Virus record (IMG/VR): IMGVR_UViG_3300027804_002812
Coordinates: 128,001-192,000 of that record
Strand: one strand, 5' to 3'
Source of the DNA: a virus
Lineage: Duplodnaviria > Caudoviricetes
Length of the DNA stretch: 64,000 bases
Of the stretch, positions 13,697 to 46,479 are shown piece by piece. Under the pieces are notes generated by a model. It saw nothing but the letters and a program-made list of their open reading frames with translations. It was not told where the DNA came from and did no database searches. A program made the translations under genes and the position numbers. The first letter of the stretch is position 1. The number at the start of each line of letters is the position of its first letter.

Positions 13697-13888
13697 ATGA
13701 TAATAATAAAAATCACCCAGGGTAATCCTCTTGAGAAAGCTCTCAAGACCCTAAAGTCAAAAGTAATTAAAACAAAACAAAATCAGATTTTATTTGATAG
13801 AAAGCAATATACAAAAAAATCTGTACTTAGAAGAGCACAGATTCTGAAGGCAAAACATATTCAAAGTCTCAAAGACCAATCAAATTGA
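13697..13888 (+). CDS. rpsU: 30S ribosomal protein bS21 (Bacteroidota type)
   Basis: MIIIKI..G..LEKALKTLKSK...RKQYTKKSVLRRAQILKA; antisense within the head module. Confidence 0.88.
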   Translation: MIIIKITQGNPLEKALKTLKSKVIKTKQNQILFDRKQYTKKSVLRRAQILKAKHIQSLKDQSN

Positions 13889-26212: not shown

Positions 26213-28225
26213 ATGAACGACTTAATGGACGACGAAGACAAAATGATGAGTAAAAAACAGAAGTCAGGAGATACCTCGACACCTGTTCTAGACAATTTCA
26301 GTAGAGATTTGAATAAACTTGCAGAGGCGGGTAAGTTGGACCCTGTCATCGGAAGAGACCGAGAGATTCTACGAATCGCACAAATTCTTTCCCGAAGAAA
26401 GAAAAATAATCCAATTATTCTTGGTGAACCTGGTTGTGGTAAAACTGCAATTGTTGAAGGTTTGGCGATGAAAATTGTCAATGGTGATTGTCCTCGTAAT
26501 CTTTTGGATAAAAGATTGGTTAACCTTGACCTAACTTCAGTTGTTGCTGGTACAAAGTATCGTGGACAATTTGAAGAAAGAATGAAGGTTATCATCGAAG
26601 AACTTCAGGCTAATCCTAACATCATCGTATTCATTGATGAAATTCATACTTTGGTTGGCTCAGGTAATTCTTCAGGTTCGATGGATGGTTCCAACATTTT
26701 CAAACCAGCACTATCTCGTGGTGAACTACAAGTAATCGGTGCAACCACTTTGGATGAGTTCAGAAAGAACATCGAAAAAGATGGGGCATTGGAACGTAGA
26801 TTCCAAAAAGTTATTGTTGACCCATCTACAGTGACTGAGACAATCCAAATTTTGAAGAATGTTCGGGACAAATACGAAACATATCACAAAGTGACTTATT
26901 CCGATGAAGTCATTGAAACTTGTGTTAAGTTGGCGGATAGATATATCACCGACCGTGAATTCCCTGACAAAGCATTCGACATCTTGGATGAAGTTGGTGC
27001 TAGAATGCAGACCGAACTTAAGGTTCCTGAGGCTATCGAAGAGTTGAAGCGTAAAGCTGCAGAACTTAAACAACAGAAGTTGGATGTAGTTAAAAAACAG
27101 AATTACGAACAAGCCGCACAACTCAGAGACAAAGAGAAAAAGTTGTTGGACAAATTGGACCAAGAAAAACAAAAATTCGAGGAACAAATGTCCAAAGACA
27201 AACAAAAGGTCGGAATGGATGATGTTTATGATGTTGTTTCAAACATGACTAAAATCCCTGTTAACAAAATGTCTACGGATGATACCAAAGCGTTGTTGAA
27301 CTTGGACAAACACATTGTTGGAACTGTCATTGGTCAGGATGCCGCGGTTATCAAGGTTGCAAAATCTATCAAGAGAAACCGACTAGGTATCAAAGATCCA
27401 AATCGTCCGATTGGTTCATTCGTTTTCTTGGGTTCAACAGGTGTTGGTAAAACTCACTTAGCAAAACAACTTGCAAAGGAAATGTTTGGAAGTGAGGACG
27501 CGCTAATCCGTGTGGATATGTCTGAGTACCAAGAGAAACATACCGTATCCAAATTGGTTGGAGCACCTCCAGGCTATGTTGGATACGAAGAAGGTGGATT
27601 GTTGACTGAGAAAGTTAAGAACAAGCCTTACTCTGTTATCTTGTTTGATGAGGTTGAGAAAGCTCACAAAGATGTATTCACCGTATTACTTCAAATCTTG
27701 GACGATGGTCACGTTACGGATAGTTTGGGTAGAAAGATTAACTTCAAGAATACCCTAATTATCTTAACATCAAATCTCGGAGTTAAAAAACTACAAGACT
27801 TCGGAACTGGTATTGGATTCTCATCAAGTACCTATGGTAACGAAGAGGCGAAGAAAGAAATCTTGATGAAAGAAATGAAGAATTTCTTTTCTCCTGAGTT
27901 TATCAACCGTATCGATGACACCATTGTTTTCAATTCTCTATCTCAAGAGGATATCAAGAAAATCACCGACATCGAACTTAAGAAGTTGATGAAGCGTCTT
28001 GACGAAATGAAGTATAAGATTACTTATGATGAATCACTTTTGAATTACCTCTCAAAAATCGGATATGATGAGGTATACGGTGCAAGACCACTCAAGAGAG
28101 CGATTCAGGATAAAGTTGAAGACTTATTATCTGAAGAAGTTCTGACCGACAAAATTATAGTAGGAAAAACCTACGTGATTAAAGTCGAAGATGAAGTAGT
28201 CAAAGTAGTCAAGAAAGGTCGGTAA
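26213..28225 (+). CDS. clpC: ClpC-like Hsp100 AAA+ unfoldase lacking the N-terminal Clp domain
   Basis: GEPGCGKT and GSTGVGKT Walker A motifs, short UVR-type M-domain, GIGF ClpP-docking loop, GARPL. Confidence 0.9.
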
Positions 28226-30358: not shown

Positions 30359-31402
30359 TTAGATTTCATCCAAACTAAATAATGAAGGTTGGTATAATAA
30401 ATTGTAAAAATTTTGTTCACTTAAAGATACTGTCTTTTGTTTTAATCCTTTCGACAATGTCACTATTATTTTCATTTCAGGAAACTTAAATCCTTCAATT
30501 TTGAACCTTATTTCTTTTTTGGGGTCTTTTGGTAAAAAGTAATATTCTTCTTGTCTAAATTTTTTCAAAATTCTCGAAGTCATATCAGTGAAATCTTTGA
30601 AACTAACTCCCTCTTCTTCTCCCTCTTCTTGAATCGTATCCAAAATTTCAGTAAAAATTGTGTTTGCGACTCTGTTGAAGCCTAAAGAGTCAAACTCATT
30701 GGGGTCTTCATAAGCATAATAATCTTCTTCCCAACCGCCTGGTGCTTCTTTTCTACTAAAAATCCTTTCTAATAATTCTTTCAAAGAAATATGGAGTTCA
30801 CCTTCTTCAATATACAACGCTATCAAGTCTGCTACCGTAATTCTGAAACCTTCACTATATGCGTCAATACCCAACTCAGCAAAATACTCATCCATTTCTT
30901 TATTTATCTCTCTTGCAAGTGATGTCTTGAATGCATGATTTTTTTCGTCTACGTAATCTTCAATAACGTATTTTATTTTTTTTCCGAAATTTTCCATTAA
31001 TTTTTCAGATAACTCCTTTCTGTATTCGTCATCTTCAAAGTTGACTTTCATAGGAAGTATGGCGTTGGAAATTTCAGACAATAGCTCCTTATTTTCTTCG
31101 TCCAAAGTGTAGTAAAACCCATACCCCACCATAAAATCTTCTACTGCGGAATAGTGATCCAAAAATTCATACTCAGAATAAGGTGCATTCACCATTTGAT
31201 AAAACCAAACATCATCATCCCGCATTCCCAACATTTCTAAAAAATCTTGTTGATTGCGAAATTCAACATCAATAACACTCTGACCAGGCGTACTTCTGTC
31301 TTCTCTCATGTACGAGAATAGCTTATCAGAGGCTAAAAGTTCATCTTTGGTTATTTTGTGTTTAGCGTAATTTCTTAATGACCTGAAAGTTTCATAATTC
31401 AT
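30359..31402 (-). CDS. acidic hypothetical protein
   Basis: ORF with start moved to MNYETF; TATTTAT directly upstream. Confidence 0.7.
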   Translation of the reverse strand: MNYETFRSLRNYAKHKITKDELLASDKLFSYMREDRSTPGQSVIDVEFRNQQDFLEMLGMRDDDVWFYQMVNAPYSEYEFLDHYSAVEDFMVGYGFYYTLDEENKELLSEISNAILPMKVNFEDDEYRKELSEKLMENFGKKIKYVIEDYVDEKNHAFKTSLAREINKEMDEYFAELGIDAYSEGFRITVADLIALYIEEGELHISLKELLERIFSRKEAPGGWEEDYYAYEDPNEFDSLGFNRVANTIFTEILDTIQEEGEEEGVSFKDFTDMTSRILKKFRQEEYYFLPKDPKKEIRFKIEGFKFPEMKIIVTLSKGLKQKTVSLSEQNFYNLLYQPSLFSLDEI

Positions 31403-31438
31403 ACTACAAATAAATATCAATTTAGTTGGATTCGGAAA

Positions 31439-31456
31439 TATTTATACTTACATTTG
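31439..31456 (+). promoter_or_regulatory. stacked TATTTATA motif and -7 box upstream of the tmRNA
   Basis: TATTTATA 31439-31446, TACATTTG 31449-31456. Confidence 0.65.
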
Positions 31457-31465
31457 TACAACAAT

Positions 31466-31882
31466 GGGGGTGAAATAGAATTGATTAACGTTTGTATAAT
31501 CAATGGGCACGTAGTCAGAATTCATCTATGACTTGAATCTACGGTGAAGAAAGTAAACGGCAATACTCTTGCTAAGATGTCTGCTTTAGGTTTAACTAGA
31601 GAAGCATCTGTTGTAACTGCTTAAGAAGTAGATACAACGTCAGGTCGAATGGGCATATAACCTAGGAACAGAAGCCCTCCAAGGTGTGATACCACCCGAA
31701 GCGTATCAAAAGGTCACGTTCAGAGGACTACCTTAGTAAAAGTGAACTCGACACAGTTGTTGGTAACGATGTCAAAATAGGAACCATCTATTTCGGAAGG
31801 TATCACAAACCTTGGCCTAAACGTGTAGTCCATTTTTGATATGGCGGGTAAGACTGGGAGGCGGTATCCCACACCTCCACCA
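31466..31882 (+). ncRNA. ssrA: tmRNA
   Basis: GGGGGTG/CACCTCC acceptor stem with G3:U70, 3' ACCA, T-arm TGGGA-GGCGGTA-TCCCA, pk1-like GTCA/TGAC, TAAAC-GGC resume site, tag ORF 31559-31624. Confidence 0.9.
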
Positions 31883-31888
31883 TTAAAT

Positions 31889-31920
31889 AAAAAAGGGAGT
31901 CATTGACTCCCTTTTTTTTT
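31889..31920. terminator. bidirectional terminator between the tmRNA and the lipoprotein gene
   Basis: gggagtca/tgactccc stem with A and T runs. Confidence 0.85.
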
Positions 31921-33115
31921 AGTTTCCTTTTGACGGAAATCTTGTCCATCCATTGACCCATATAGGTTTGTCTAATTCCGGTATTACCACGTCAACTTCT
32001 TTATTACTTTTTGATAATGCCAATGTTTTAAGTTGTTCACTTGTTAGAATTGTTGTCGCTCTACTAATGAAATTCAGAGTTGGATTGAATGTTCCAACAG
32101 AATTGTTTTCAAAGACAGATACACCATCTTTTACGAACTGTGCGGTTTCATTACTTTCCAAACTTAAGCCACCTTTCATCCATCCCCAAACTACGCTATT
32201 CTTCATTGTGAATTGGGTAGCTCTTCTAAATCTCAATCCTAAGTTGTGGTTAGCCAATGCTGAAGATGTATTTGGTCCAACCAAAATCATATTGAAAAGT
32301 TTTGGGTGTGTGTAAGGTTGTGCTGCGGATCCTGTTCCATCATTATCACATTCCACACCATTTCCAGCGTCACCACTATCGACAAATTGAGGGTCTCTTT
32401 TTGCCACTCCGTTTGTAATCATCCCTGTATAACCAAAGTCAAAGTCGAAATCATCATCTGCGGTTGCAAATGCGTAAAGATTTTTACCATTTACGGTTCC
32501 ACCAAAGAATTCGAATGCGTCATCGTTAGCATATATTGTTTGAATGTTTTCAAGAATTGTTCCGTTTCCTACACCACCTAAAGTAAGTGCGTTGATTTCA
32601 GAATTCGGCATCGCTGCGATTCCTGCATATTCAATTCTAACGAATCTCAATACACCACTATTATCAGAATCATTTGTTCCACCATAAGGTCTTCCAATAC
32701 CACCTTCGATTGTAGGTTCAGAAGAACGGTTTGTCTTCGCTCTACCTAAAATTACTATACCACCCCAATCACCAGGAGATCGTTGTCCCTCAGGTCTCCC
32801 AGACGTAAATACAATAGGTTTGGATTGGGTTCCTTCCGCAATAATTTGGGAACCTCTTTCAATACATAACGCTCCCTTCTCGGCAACATCAGAAACTATG
32901 GTAGTTCCAGGTTGGATAATAAGTTTTGCTCCATCGGTTACATAAACATATCCTTTAAGTGTCCAAACTTTGTCAGATGTCAAAGTTGTTGTCGTGTTTA
33001 TGTTTCCTGTAAGTGTTGTGGTAGCTGGGACATTCACTGGTCCTTCTCCTCCACCTAAATCTCTATCACAGCTGAAGAGACCTAATGCAATCATAATTGT
33101 TAATAGTTTTTTCAT
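31919..33115 (-). CDS. Bacteroidota-type lipoprotein (beta-helix-like), partner of the TonB receptor
   Basis: lipobox LFSC; GDWGGIVILG, YVRIEY-like and DDAFEFFGG motifs; 4-bp overlap with the receptor gene. Confidence 0.75.
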   Translation of the reverse strand: MKKLLTIMIALGLFSCDRDLGGGEGPVNVPATTTLTGNINTTTTLTSDKVWTLKGYVYVTDGAKLIIQPGTTIVSDVAEKGALCIERGSQIIAEGTQSKPIVFTSGRPEGQRSPGDWGGIVILGRAKTNRSSEPTIEGGIGRPYGGTNDSDNSGVLRFVRIEYAGIAAMPNSEINALTLGGVGNGTILENIQTIYANDDAFEFFGGTVNGKNLYAFATADDDFDFDFGYTGMITNGVAKRDPQFVDSGDAGNGVECDNDGTGSAAQPYTHPKLFNMILVGPNTSSALANHNLGLRFRRATQFTMKNSVVWGWMKGGLSLESNETAQFVKDGVSVFENNSVGTFNPTLNFISRATTILTSEQLKTLALSKSNKEVDVVIPELDKPIWVNGWTRFPSKGN

Positions 33116-45798: not shown

Positions 45799-46479
45799 AT
45801 GAACATCGGACAAGAATTTCAAAACTATTACGTGAAACATTTGGGAAAAGGGTCATTAGACCTTCACAATTTCTCAAGTCAAATTCAATCATCAATGACT
45901 CCTTATATTCTTGAAGAAAGAGAAATGAGGGCAACTCAAATCGACATCTTCTCAAGATTGATGAGAGACAGAATTATTTGGGTGGCTGGTCCTGTGGATG
46001 ATAGAATGTCGACTATTGTACAAGCACAATTGATGTTTATGGACAATGTTGATAAGACCGATATTACTATGCACATTGATAGTCCAGGTGGAAGTGTGAA
46101 GTCAGGATTGTCTATGGTTGATGTAATGAACTACATTGCTTGTGATATCAGAACGGTGAATACAGGTATGGCAGCTTCTATGGGTTCTGTGTTGTTAGGA
46201 GCAGGAACCAAAGGAAAAAGAAGTTCTTTGAGATTTTCGAGAACAATGTTACACCAATCTTCTGGTGGTGCCGTAGGTAACATTCAAGACGCTGAAATCA
46301 CAATGAGAGAATGGGCAAAATTGAATGATATTCTATTTGGTCTCCTTGGTGAGTTTTGTGGAAAAGACCCTGAACAAGTTAAGTTGGACGCTAGTAGAGA
46401 TTTGTGGTTGGATAGTGAACAAGCCCTCGAATATGGAATTATTGACGAGATTGTTAAAACGAAAAAGAGGGGTAAATAA
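45799..46479 (+). CDS. clpP: ATP-dependent Clp protease proteolytic subunit
   Basis: SPGGSV, GMAASMG (Ser), MLHQ (His), RDLW; start moved to ATG 45799. Confidence 0.95.
   Translation: MNIGQEFQNYYVKHLGKGSLDLHNFSSQIQSSMTPYILEEREMRATQIDIFSRLMRDRIIWVAGPVDDRMSTIVQAQLMFMDNVDKTDITMHIDSPGGSVKSGLSMVDVMNYIACDIRTVNTGMAASMGSVLLGAGTKGKRSSLRFSRTMLHQSSGGAVGNIQDAEITMREWAKLNDILFGLLGEFCGKDPEQVKLDASRDLWLDSEQALEYGIIDEIVKTKKRGK

What the first reader, a model, noticed from the sequence alone, without database searches (positions are those of the whole stretch)
31466..31882. Phage tmRNA with a long, non-canonical degradation tag
Seen: an alanylatable tRNA-like domain (G3:U70, CCA). The tag ORF at 31559-31624 reads (A)GNTLAKMSALGLTREASVVTA*, 21 codons ending VTA. 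A TATTTATA motif and a host-type -7 box are stacked upstream. Known: host tags are usually about 10 codons ending ALAA/LAA, and ClpX reads that end. Inference: the tag may escape host ClpXP, or be routed to the phage ClpC/ClpP, giving an orthogonal ribosome-rescue pathway. The resume codon is inferred from the upstream TAAAC.
Basis: partly seen in the sequence, partly recalled or inferred. Interest (0 to 1): 0.75.

Follow-up and report, generated by a model that had tools for sequence, protein, structure and literature searches.

The report
Giant-phage tmRNA with long conserved tag
A 326-kb freshwater phage carries its own, transcribed ribosome-rescue RNA (tmRNA) whose peptide tag is twice the length of its host phylum's and is kept in well over a hundred related phages; standard detectors miss the gene, and which protease reads the tag is still untested.

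Summary
Window 31466-31882 (+) is a real one-piece tmRNA gene in a 326-kb bS21-encoding freshwater phage, probably of Bacteroidota. ARAGORN misses it, and Rfam RF00023 scores it 38 bits (cut-off 47). Even so, 54 distinct homologues in IMG/VR show compensatory changes in the acceptor stem, P2, T-arm, PK2 and helix 5, with G3:U70 invariant.

ARAGORN calls the same resume codon (GGC) and the same tag family in relatives. The tag is exactly 21 codons in 54 of 54 variants. It is 20-22 codons in a structure-sampled superfamily, with a fixed core (G1, M/L7, G11, L/I12, V18, A21). Host-phylum tags are 9-10 codons ending A[LM]AA. Metatranscriptome contigs from four freshwater studies cover only the RNA, not its flanks.

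The window's copy also has a non-canonical T-loop (GGCGGUA) that covaries with a D-loop change (GG to AG). At least nine different paired T-stems carry this loop.

The phage has an N-domain-less ClpC with an IGF loop, plus ClpP, but no SmpB, Lon or ClpX. Co-occurrence is confounded by shared descent, and many relatives end in near-canonical VAA.

This scan has noted long-tag phage tmRNAs before on other DNA (e1-5342295, e1-3266674, e1-4037769).

The parts
31439..31456 (+). Upstream promoter-like words: TATTTATA (31439-31446) and a Bacteroidota-type -7 box TAnnTTTG (TACATTTG, 31449-31456), 9 nt before the mature 5' end
   Evidence: Sequence and pattern hit. Relatives carry TAnnTTTG about 22 nt upstream instead (alignment). 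The motif is not enriched window-wide (104 hits against 90 +/- 9.7 expected), so its promoter role is inferred.
31466..31882 (+). One-piece tmRNA (ssrA) gene, 417 nt
   Evidence: RF00023 global match at 38.4 bits. 54 homologues with 29 of 41 covarying pairs. ARAGORN tmRNA calls on relatives. RNA contigs from four studies cover 31466-31879 only.
31466..31472 (+). Acceptor stem 5' strand GGGGGUG, with G3 of the G3:U70 alanine identity pair
   Evidence: Pairs with 31872-31878. G:U is kept in 54 of 54 while neighbouring pairs covary (GC/CG, AU/GC/GU/UG/CG/UA).
31476..31484 (+). D-loop analogue UAGAAUUGA: reads AG where canonical relatives read GG
   Evidence: Alignments. Every copy with a GGCRG T-loop has UAG here.
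31485..31512 (+). P2 long helix, 5' strand (pairs with 31821-31851)
   Evidence: RNAalifold finds 24 pairs, most with 2-5 pair types, for example GC/UG/AU/UA at one column.
31513..31548 (+). Pseudoknot 1: stem AGUCA/UGACU and stem UUCAUC/GGUGAA, upstream of the resume codon
   Evidence: Rfam alignment. Compensatory changes read from the alignment: AGUCG/CGACU in L105, AGUGA/UCACU and UUUCC/GGAGG in L119. No formal pair count was done.
31554..31558 (+). Frame-setting upstream sequence UAAAC, with A at -4 (31555)
   Evidence: A at -4 is invariant in 61 of 61 structure-sampled relatives. The role of the equivalent A86 in E. coli is from PMC2481249.
31559..31624 (+). Tag reading frame: 21 codons GNTLAKMSALGLTREASVVTA plus TAA. 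With the charged Ala, 22 residues are added.
   Evidence: All 54 variants have 21 codons with the stop at codon 22 (TAA 50, TGA 3, TAG 1). Leu12 is kept through TTA/TTG/CTT/CTA. In-frame pN/pS is 0.66 against 0.85 and 0.95 off-frame. ARAGORN gives the same frame in relatives.
31608..31638 (+). Helix 5: hairpin with the stop codon in its apical loop (outer stem GUUGUA/UACAAC, inner stem CUGCUU/AAGUAG)
   Evidence: RNAfold encloses the stop codon in a hairpin in 54 of 54 variants. The inner stem covaries, for example GCUGCCU/AGGUAG in L079 and ACUAUCU/AGAUAG in L083.
31651..31677 (+). PK2 stem GGGC/GCCC around the invariant CCUAGGAACAGAAG
   Evidence: RNAalifold pairs with GC to AU/UA changes in 11-13 sequences.
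31821..31851 (+). P2 long helix, 3' strand (includes the invariant UAAACGUGUAG)
31855..31871 (+). T-arm: stem UGGGA/UCCCA with the non-canonical 7-nt loop GGCGGUA (31860-31866)
   Evidence: Sequence. All 5 stem pairs covary in the family. The GGCRG loop is found with at least 9 different Watson-Crick stems in 15 further contigs.
31872..31882 (+). Acceptor 3' strand CACCUCC, discriminator A, encoded CCA
   Evidence: Sequence. Some relatives lack an encoded CCA (ACAA, ACUU, ACCU).
31889..31917 (.). Intrinsic terminator hairpin (13 bp), A-run on one side and T-run on the other, shared with the convergent lipoprotein gene (31919-33115, minus strand)
   Evidence: Terminator scan; ORF list.
26213..28225 (+). 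Phage ClpC-like AAA+ unfoldase (670 aa) without an N-domain. A candidate, unproven reader of the tag.
   Evidence: Pfam AAA_2, AAA_lid_9, ClpB_D2-small and UVR. Aligns to S. aureus ClpC residues 151-794 at E 2.6e-219, with I-G-F at the ClpP-docking loop.
45934..46461 (+). Phage ClpP
   Evidence: PF00574 at 188.8 bits at G000:173934-174461.

Best explanation
This is a functional, transcribed phage ssrA gene.

Shown:
- The RNA has the full one-piece tmRNA architecture: a G3:U70 acceptor stem with ACCA, a T-arm, the long P2 helix, PK1, an internal frame with no start codon, the stop codon in the helix-5 loop, and downstream pseudoknots.
- That architecture is maintained by compensatory evolution in a large clade of about 300-kb freshwater phages.
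- The tag frame is kept at 20-22 codons with a fixed internal core.

Inferred, from how tmRNA is known to work:
- Host AlaRS charges the RNA with alanine.
- Host SmpB and EF-Tu deliver it to stalled ribosomes, because the phage has no SmpB.
- Translation resumes four bases after the invariant A, at GGC.
- The stalled protein receives AGNTLAKMSALGLTREASVVTA and is released at TAA.

Further inferred:
- The small, hydrophobic C-terminus (Ala-COOH in most variants) still works as a degradation signal.
- The phage-specific conserved interior (M/L7, G11-L12) is a binding determinant for a particular adaptor or unfoldase.

Which protease reads the tag is open. My estimate is about 45% host proteases in general (ClpXP, Lon, FtsH or Tsp), about 20-25% preferential delivery to the phage's own N-less ClpC-ClpP, and the rest other or unknown.
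For: - Rfam global match.
- 54 distinct homologues, with 29 of 41 predicted pairs showing two-sided changes; G3:U70 invariant.
- ARAGORN calls tmRNA with the same resume codon and tag family in relatives.
- Tag length is 21 codons in 54 of 54 variants, using three different stop codons at codon 22.
- A structure-only sample gives 21 codons in 66, 20 in 15 and 22 in 6 tmRNAs. G11 is invariant through GGT/GGC/GGA. L/I12 is kept through 5 codons. In-frame pN/pS is the lowest of the three frames. A at -4 is invariant in 61 of 61.
- Helix 5 encloses the stop codon in 54 of 54 variants.
- RNA contigs from four independent freshwater metatranscriptome studies cover 31466-31879 and nothing in the flanks. 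One 175-nt contig is identical across the tag frame.
- Host-phylum tags are 9-10 codons ending A[LM]AA, and some start GNTQ, which suggests the origin of the phage tag.
- The phage lacks SmpB, Lon, ClpX zinc finger and RF-1/ArfB domains, but has ClpP and a ClpC with an IGF loop.
Against: - No experiment shows charging, SmpB binding or tagging.
- The window's own T-loop (GGCGGUA) lacks U54, U55 and A58, which are nearly universal in tRNA-like domains, and ARAGORN rejects the gene.
- RF00023 scores it no better than it scores ordinary tRNAs in host genomes (up to 43 bits).
- Logan contigs from RNA libraries cannot prove transcription or define the RNA ends (caveats).
- The pN/pS contrast between frames is modest (0.66 against 0.85 and 0.95).
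- The last five codons are also constrained by helix 5, so part of the tag's conservation is at the RNA level.
- The host is inferred, not shown.
Confidence: 0.78

Rival explanations
1. This is the first reader's idea: an orthogonal degradation route. The long tag is poorly read by host ClpXP and is delivered instead to the phage's own N-domain-less ClpC plus ClpP, perhaps through the neighbouring small UVR-motif protein. The phage would then control the fate of rescued products.
For: - The conserved interior of the tag is absent from host tags.
- The phage ClpC has an IGF ClpP-docking tripeptide and lacks the N-domain that normally gates substrates through adaptors.
- ClpC lies 3.2 kb upstream of the tmRNA and ClpP 14 kb downstream. 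ClpC is in 19 of 20 large tmRNA-bearing contigs and ClpP in 15 of 20, and the gaps fit contig ends.
- The phage encodes no Lon or ClpX.
- There is precedent for a long tag switching protease: the 27-residue Mycoplasma tag is read by Lon (PMC8403727, which cites Gur and Sauer 2008).
Against: - There is no direct test.
- All the contigs belong to one clade with conserved synteny, so co-occurrence carries little weight.
- Many relatives end VVAA, KVAA or VAVA, and the terminal Ala is kept in 45 of 54 variants, so ClpX-type recognition is not obviously lost.
- The penultimate residue is free to vary (T, A, G, V, E, K).
- No SmpB is encoded, so the rescue step itself depends on the host.
Confidence: 0.22
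2. The tmRNA simply adds rescue capacity. It supplements host trans-translation during a heavy infection, as phage tRNAs and bS21 supplement translation. The tag is an ordinary degron for host proteases, and its extra length is a lineage-specific elaboration, for example a host adaptor site like that for SspB, with no phage-specific partner.
For: - The phage carries 12 tRNAs in this window and bS21, and this clade is known for translation-related cargo (PMC9723584).
- The tag keeps a small, hydrophobic C-terminus ending in Ala.
- The tag start GNT matches some host-phylum tags, GNTQYAMAA and GNTQLAMAA.
- The rescue step depends on host SmpB.
Against: - A plain supplement would be expected to keep the host's 9-10-codon tag.
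- Instead a 20-22-codon tag with a fixed core is kept across at least two divergent phage tag families.
- That tag is not found in the cellular genomes searched. The only hit was one contig, probably phage, binned in a MAG.
Confidence: 0.4
3. The RNA acts as a decoy or interferes with host trans-translation. It would mainly titrate host SmpB or compete with host tmRNA, for example to blunt a host response to stalled ribosomes. The encoded peptide would be secondary.
For: - PMC4131195 notes a phage RNA consisting of little more than the tRNA-like domain (DS6A), and that such molecules can inhibit tmRNA.
- The window's altered D-loop and T-loop elbow could change how it engages SmpB or the ribosome.
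- Metatranscriptome contig depths over the RNA are high, although such depths are unreliable.
Against: A pure decoy needs no reading frame. Yet frame length, stop position, the A at -4, helix 5 and several residues are all conserved.
Confidence: 0.08
4. The window's own copy is a decaying gene. Its aberrant T-loop and D-loop would make this copy non-functional even though its relatives work.
For: - ARAGORN is silent on it, and RF00023 is below threshold.
- The T-loop lacks U54, U55 and A58.
- The close relatives L001 and L152 have lost the encoded CCA (they read ACAA).
Against: - The same GGCRG loop occurs with at least 9 different, perfectly paired T-stems in 15 further contigs and in two tag families.
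- It is always paired with the same D-loop change, GG to AG. This is the pattern of a selected alternative structure, not of decay.
- The tag frame, P2 and acceptor stem are intact.
- The window's exact body sequence is present in RNA libraries.
Confidence: 0.07

Closest known systems
Bacterial one-piece tmRNA (SsrA, Rfam RF00023), Bacteroidota type (tags GENNYALAA, GETNYALAA, GNTQYAMAA)
   Same: - Same overall architecture: G3:U70 acceptor with ACCA, P2, PK1, a frame with no start codon, the stop in the helix-5 loop, and downstream pseudoknots.
- Resume codon GGC (Gly) preceded by A at -4.
- The tag starts G-N-T, as in some host-phylum tags.
   Different: - The tag is 21 codons instead of 9-10, with a conserved interior absent from host tags.
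- The ending is VVTA rather than A[LM]AA.
- RF00023 scores it 38 bits against 105-186 bits for host-phylum tmRNAs.
- In the window's lineage the T-loop is GGCGGUA and the D-loop reads AG instead of GG.
- It is encoded by a virus that has no SmpB.
Previously reported phage tmRNAs: Bacillus phage G, cluster C mycobacteriophages such as Bxz1 (PMC4131195), huge phages (PMC7162821), and the two-piece ssrA of methylophage Melnitz (PMC9004378)
   Same: A complete ssrA gene carried by a large lytic-type phage alongside tRNAs and other translation genes.
   Different: - It belongs to a different, freshwater, Bacteroidota-associated clade (the bS21 phages of PMC9723584, whose paper does not mention a tmRNA).
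- About half of the family is invisible to ARAGORN, the tool used in those surveys.
- The papers read here do not analyse tag length conservation or the alternative T-loop.
Mycoplasma tmRNA with a 27-residue tag read by Lon (Gur and Sauer 2008; PMC8403727)
   Same: An unusually long tag whose extra residues carry the recognition determinants. This is the precedent for a tag and a protease co-evolving.
   Different: - In Mycoplasma the switch follows loss of ClpXP from a reduced cellular genome. Here the long tag is viral, and the host presumably keeps ClpXP.
- There is no sequence similarity between the tags.
- The protease partner here is unknown.
E. coli ssrA tag with the SspB adaptor (N-terminal part binds the adaptor, C-terminal LAA binds ClpX)
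   Same: A possible two-part logic: a conserved N-terminal and middle segment plus a small hydrophobic C-terminus. The E. coli facts come from established knowledge and from the introduction of PMC8403727.
   Different: No SspB-like protein or binding motif was identified here. The analogy is functional only and was not tested.

Membership tests
tmRNA (SsrA, RF00023), one-piece | tRNA-like domain: 7-bp acceptor stem formed by the 5' and 3' ends, G3:U70 alanine identity pair, single-stranded NCCA end | tested here: met
   GGGGGUG/CACCUCC plus ACCA. G:U is kept in 54 of 54 homologues while neighbouring pairs covary.
tmRNA (SsrA, RF00023), one-piece | T-arm (5-bp stem, 7-nt loop) directly 5' of the acceptor 3' strand | tested here: met
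   UGGGA-GGCGGUA-UCCCA at 31855-31871. All five stem pairs show two-sided changes in the family.
tmRNA (SsrA, RF00023), one-piece | Canonical T-loop sequence (U54 U55 C56 R A58) and D-loop GG. These are strongly conserved but are not what defines the family. | tested here: not met
   The window has GGCGGUA and D-loop UAGA. 50 of 54 relatives have GGUUCGAnUCC and GG. The variant is itself conserved, with at least 9 different stems. Orthology with canonical copies is shown by 92-96% identity over positions 41-363.
tmRNA (SsrA, RF00023), one-piece | Long helix P2 joining the tRNA-like domain to the body | tested here: met
   About 24 pairs, most with several pair types.
tmRNA (SsrA, RF00023), one-piece | Pseudoknot PK1 just upstream of the resume codon | tested here: met
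   The Rfam alignment places it. Both stems show compensatory changes in L105 and L119, read from the alignment. No formal pair count was made because the second PK1 type is not aligned in register.
tmRNA (SsrA, RF00023), one-piece | Internal frame without a start codon, resume codon four bases after a conserved A, in-frame stop in the loop of helix 5 | tested here: met
   UAAAC-GGC...UAA. A at -4 in 61 of 61. Stop at codon 22 in 54 of 54. The stop is enclosed by a hairpin in 54 of 54. ARAGORN gives the same frame in relatives.
tmRNA (SsrA, RF00023), one-piece | Score at or above Rfam's gathering threshold, or an ARAGORN call | tested here: not met
   38.4 bits against 47. ARAGORN finds nothing on the window. 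This is a criterion of the detectors, not of the biology. Relatives pass ARAGORN.
tmRNA (SsrA, RF00023), one-piece | Alanylation by AlaRS, binding of SmpB, and tagging of stalled peptides | not testable with these tools
   No SmpB in the phage. Biochemistry is needed.
ClpXP-type ssrA degron | C-terminal L/V-A-A-COOH | tested here: not met
   The window ends V-T-A. Across the family the last residue is A in 45 of 54. The penultimate residue is T in 20, A in 14, G in 7, V in 6, E in 4 and K in 3. 14 of 54 variants end xAA.
bS21-encoding freshwater Bacteroidetes huge phages (PMC9723584) | 293-331 kb, 31-34% GC, encodes bS21 and Clp protease, freshwater | tested here: met
   326,291 bp. GC 0.30-0.38 across the window. 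PF01165 hit at window 13706-13852. ClpP present. Found in freshwater metatranscriptomes. No phylogeny was made, so clade membership is probable, not proven.

The most novel reading that the evidence does not exclude
Two linked novelties may be present.

1. Huge freshwater phages may run a partly private quality-control circuit. Their tmRNA writes a virus-specific 20-22-residue handle (core M7...G11-L12) that is read by the phage's own N-domain-less ClpC-ClpP, or by its small UVR-motif cofactor, rather than by host ClpXP.

2. A sub-lineage that includes this window has rebuilt the universally conserved tRNA elbow. U54, U55 and A58 have become G, G and G, and G18 has become A. This could change recognition by host modification enzymes, nucleases or SmpB, for example to escape a host factor that targets tRNA-like elbows.
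Probability: 0.2. Interest if true: 0.85.

Novelty: new variant of a known kind. Interest (0 to 1): 0.58.

Why it matters
Phage-encoded tmRNAs are known, but they are treated as rare accessories. One survey found them in 402 of 18,146 phage genomes (PMC9004378), and their tags have hardly been examined.

Here a whole clade of abundant freshwater giant phages carries one. ARAGORN misses half of the copies and Rfam misses the window's. The gene is therefore under-counted, and the paper on this phage group does not report it.

The tag is twice the host length, and its length and core residues are conserved across divergent phage lineages. The peptide itself is therefore under selection. This gives a concrete, testable handle on what phages do with stalled-ribosome products, and on whether the phage Clp machine has its own degron.

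The covarying D-loop and T-loop replacement is also a natural experiment. It shows how much of the tRNA elbow trans-translation really needs.

Tried and rejected
- **blastn against the phages collection.** The tmRNA region gave no match.
- **Rfam and the whole-genome search.** Rfam at gathering threshold, and the genome search with RF00023, did not report the gene.
- **pN/pS on the pattern-selected set.** On codons 12-21 it was not decisive: 0.62 in frame against 0.80 and 0.50 off frame. The pattern-selected set is biased in codons 1-11, so I repeated the test on a structure-sampled set. The in-frame value is lowest there, but the margin is modest.
- **TAnnTTTG as a host-promoter signal.** It is not enriched window-wide (104 against 90 +/- 9.7), so it gives only local, weak support for a Bacteroidota host.
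- **Co-occurrence of the tmRNA with ClpC and ClpP.** Rejected as evidence for a functional link, because all contigs are one syntenic clade and most are fragments.
- **The sister tag start GGC AAC GTT TAC AAC as a possible host tmRNA.** Rejected. It is at chance level in 301 genomes of the MAG's phylum (5 hits against 8 for the reversed control), but occurs in 57 viral contigs.
- **My heuristic tag caller.** It mis-started some tags: in-frame upstream extensions such as GLKQLNGNTFAK..., truncated starts, and a wrong-frame GEKIQ... set. Only the stricter calls are used.
- **A full-length covariance model.** Not built, because the RNA exceeds the tool's size and time limits.
- **The Bacteroidales MAG holding a phage-type copy (L158).** The contig is probably a binned phage contig, so this is only a weak host hint.
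Full report
**1. What is there**

The window is G000:C1:128001-192000 of a 326,291-bp IMG/VR virus record that CheckV rates complete. Its GC content is about 0.30-0.38.

At 31466-31882 on the + strand the sequence has these features:
- It begins GGGGGUG and ends CACCUCC-A-CCA. This gives a 7-bp acceptor stem with G3:U70, a discriminator A and an encoded CCA.
- A 13-bp terminator hairpin follows at 31889-31917. It is shared with the convergent lipoprotein gene at 31919-33115.
- GGC at 31559 opens a frame that reads GNTLAKMSALGLTREASVVTA and stops at TAA, 31622-31624.

**2. The detectors disagree with the biology**

- ARAGORN finds 12 tRNAs in the window and no tmRNA, even when given only this region.
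- Rfam at gathering threshold, and the whole-genome search, find nothing.
- With relaxed thresholds, RF00023 aligns globally (model 1-374) to exactly 31466-31882, at 38.4 bits against a cut-off of 47.
- For scale, tmRNAs of the candidate host phylum score 105-186 bits, and ordinary tRNAs there reach 43 bits against the same model.

The score alone therefore proves nothing. Comparative evidence was needed.

**3. Comparative evidence**

I collected relatives in three ways:
- Searching IMG/VR with the neighbouring lipoprotein gave 80 related loci. blastn found the RNA in 14 of them.
- A scan with the degenerate tag-coding pattern gave 76 more loci. Together these hold 91 hits and 54 distinct full-length sequences.

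RNAalifold on the 54 sequences predicts 41 pairs, and 29 of them have two-sided compensatory changes:
- the acceptor stem, with G:U at 3:70 in 54 of 54;
- a P2 helix of about 24 pairs, with up to five pair types per column;
- all five T-stem pairs;
- a PK2 stem.

PK1 shows compensatory changes in both of its stems (L105 and L119, read). Helix 5 encloses the stop codon in 54 of 54 variants and covaries in its inner stem.

ARAGORN calls a tmRNA in 7 of the first 14 loci and in 26 of 54 variants. It always gives resume codon GGC and a 21-residue tag of the same family, for example GNTFAKMATLGLTREASVVAA.

**4. The tag**

- All 54 variants have exactly 21 sense codons, with the stop at codon 22 (TAA 50, TGA 3, TAG 1).
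- Leu12 is invariant through TTA, TTG, CTT and CTA. Glu15 is kept through GAA and GAG.
- In the structure-sampled set, 87 of 110 distinct tmRNAs gave a confident tag: 21 codons in 66, 20 in 15 and 22 in 6.
- The profile is G1, N/E/K2, T/V3, an aromatic or aliphatic residue at 4, K/N6, M/L7, G11 (invariant through GGT/GGC/GGA), L/I12, V18 and A21.
- In-frame pN/pS is 0.66 against 0.85 and 0.95 in the other frames. The contrast is modest.
- A lies four bases before the resume codon in 61 of 61. This matches the experimentally defined frame-setting A86 of E. coli tmRNA (PMC2481249).
- A sister family was first seen as loose ends in the metatranscriptome contigs. It is present in 57 viral contigs and encodes GNVYNNMEVAGLLATSKVAA or ...SNVAVA. 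It shares G1-N2, M7, G11-L12 and the V-A-A type ending.

Tag length and an internal core are therefore conserved as a peptide across divergent phage lineages.

**5. Host baseline**

- The flanking TonB-dependent receptor has the Bacteroidota-type CarboxypepD_reg, Plug and beta-barrel build.
- The genome encodes bS21. In size, GC, Clp genes and habitat it matches the bS21-encoding freshwater phages predicted to infect Bacteroidetes in PMC9723584. That paper used tRNAscan-SE and never mentions a tmRNA.
- The tag pattern occurs in only one cellular assembly of 185,579 species genomes: an 81-kb contig binned in a Bacteroidales MAG.
- That MAG's own tmRNA (65 bits, cut off by the contig end) reads GGC GAA ACT AAT TAC GCT CTT GCT GCT TAA, which is GETNYALAA.
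- Across 30 genomes of the same phylum (31 tmRNAs called), tags are 9-10 codons and 29 end in A[LM]AA. Two read GNTQYAMAA or GNTQLAMAA, which share the phage tag's first three residues.

The phage tag therefore looks like an expanded descendant of a Bacteroidota-type tag.

**6. Expression**

Eighteen freshwater, riverine or lake metatranscriptome runs from many studies hold part of the stretch. I laid four runs from four studies:
- Their contigs cover 31466-31879 and nothing in 31300-31443 or 31900-32000.
- One contig starts exactly at 31466, and another ends at 31879.
- A 175-nt contig (31505-31679) is identical to the window across the tag frame.

Contigs cannot give expression levels or RNA ends, and DNA carry-over is possible. 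The restriction to the RNA in four studies does fit a discrete stable RNA.

**7. An unexpected structural variant**

- The window's T-loop is GGCGGUA instead of UUCGAAU, and its D-loop reads UAGA where relatives read NGGN.
- The body (positions 41-363) is 92-96% identical to copies in L002, L003, L004 and L051, which have a canonical elbow. The tRNA-like domain and the body therefore have different histories. The break points fall in the invariant P2 sequences GGCACGUAG and UAAACGUGUAG, which suggests recombination.
- A dedicated scan found the GGCRG loop in 15 further contigs. They have at least nine different, perfectly paired T-stems and belong to two tag families. Every copy has UAG in the D-loop.

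In tRNA numbering, G18, U54, U55 and A58 are replaced together by A, G, G and G, while G19 and C56 stay. This is a selected alternative elbow, not decay. What it does is unknown.

**8. The proposed link to phage ClpC/ClpP**

- The phage encodes ClpP (window 45934-46461).
- It also encodes a 670-aa ClpC (26213-28225). This aligns to S. aureus ClpC residues 151-794, so it lacks the N-domain. It keeps I-G-F at the ClpP-docking loop.
- The phage has no SmpB, Lon, ClpX zinc finger, RF-1/ArfB domain or CCA-adding enzyme.
- ClpC occurs in 19 of 20 large tmRNA-bearing contigs and ClpP in 15 of 20. The missing cases are contigs that end before the expected position.

This makes a phage ClpC-ClpP protease plausible and places it beside the tmRNA. 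It is a single syntenic clade, however, so the association carries little weight.

Against a simple 'escape from ClpX' reading:
- the terminal residue is Ala in most variants;
- many relatives end VVAA, KVAA or VAVA;
- the penultimate residue varies freely;
- the last codons double as helix 5.

The best precedent for a long tag that redirects proteolysis is Mycoplasma, where a 27-residue tag is read mainly by Lon (PMC8403727, citing Gur and Sauer 2008).

I rate the phage-ClpCP route at about 0.2. Generic host proteolysis with an adaptor-like extension is about 0.4-0.45. A decoy role is below 0.1.

**9. Comparison and novelty**

- Phage tmRNAs are known: Bacillus phage G and cluster C mycobacteriophages (PMC4131195), huge phages (PMC7162821), and 402 of 18,146 phage genomes in one survey (PMC9004378).
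- Long tags are known in Mycoplasma.
- Earlier notes of this scan describe other phage tmRNAs with long conserved tags on other DNA. I did not check them.
- Three things are new here: this particular, large and largely undetected freshwater family; its fixed 20-22-residue tag with an internal core; and the covarying replacement of the T-loop and D-loop.

I file it as a new variant of a known kind. The mechanism of rescue is inferred from the family. The fate of tagged proteins is open.

Noticed in passing
window 31476-31484 and 31860-31866; L099, L152, L155, L334-L347: There is an alternative tRNA elbow: T-loop GGCRGNR together with D-loop UAG (in place of UUCGANY and GG). It occurs in at least 16 phage tmRNA copies with at least 9 different Watson-Crick T-stems and in two tag families. 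Its function is unknown.
   Followed up: yes
window 31466-31505 and 31829-31882, compared with L002, L003, L004, L051: The gene is a mosaic. The body (positions 41-363) is 92-96% identical to sister copies, but the tRNA-like domain ends are unalignable by blastn. The break points lie in the invariant P2 words GGCACGUAG and UAAACGUGUAG, which suggests recombination between tmRNA genes.
   Followed up: partly
L161-L217 (viral contigs): A sister phage tmRNA family has tags GNVYNNMEVAGLLATSKVAA or ...SNVAVA (20-21 codons) and shares PK1 at over 92% identity with the window's RNA. Further types appear in the structure-sampled set: GNVLNKMALVGLVRQDELVNVA and GETIAKLSAIGLIREESVVTA.
   Followed up: partly
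L106, L114, L148: Three family members appear to have 6-nt T-loops (UUCGAA or UUCGAU) instead of 7.
   Followed up: no
L001, L152, L155, L003, L004, L335-L347: Many relatives lack an encoded CCA (3' ends read ACAA, ACCU, ACUU, ACUA). G000 has no PolyA_pol/CCA-adding enzyme hit, so these copies would depend on the host CCA-adding enzyme.
   Followed up: no
L014, L077, L079, L080, L039, L062, L068, L031: In these relatives the tmRNA lies about 3-4 kb upstream of the lipoprotein gene on the same strand. In the window it is convergent with that gene and immediately downstream of it. The locus has been rearranged within the clade.
   Followed up: no
window 13706-13852 (+): A ribosomal protein bS21 homologue (PF01165, 29.5 bits) places the genome among the bS21-encoding freshwater Bacteroidetes phages of PMC9723584.
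   Followed up: partly
L158 (CAIKVR010000375.1, 81 kb contig of a Bacteroidales MAG): This is the only cellular-genome hit for the phage tag pattern. It is probably a phage contig binned with a MAG. ARAGORN and the RF00023 genome search both miss its tmRNA. The MAG's own tmRNA (L159) has the canonical tag GETNYALAA.
   Followed up: partly
window 31516-31539: The metatranscriptome contig depth over PK1 is about ten times that over the tag frame in runs X1 and X3. This is probably because several phage tmRNA families share this segment, so depth here is not a measure of this phage's expression.
   Followed up: no
window 26213-28225: The phage ClpC has I-G-F at the ClpP-docking loop, where S. aureus ClpC has A-G-F, and it starts at the equivalent of residue 151, so it has no N-domain.
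   Followed up: partly
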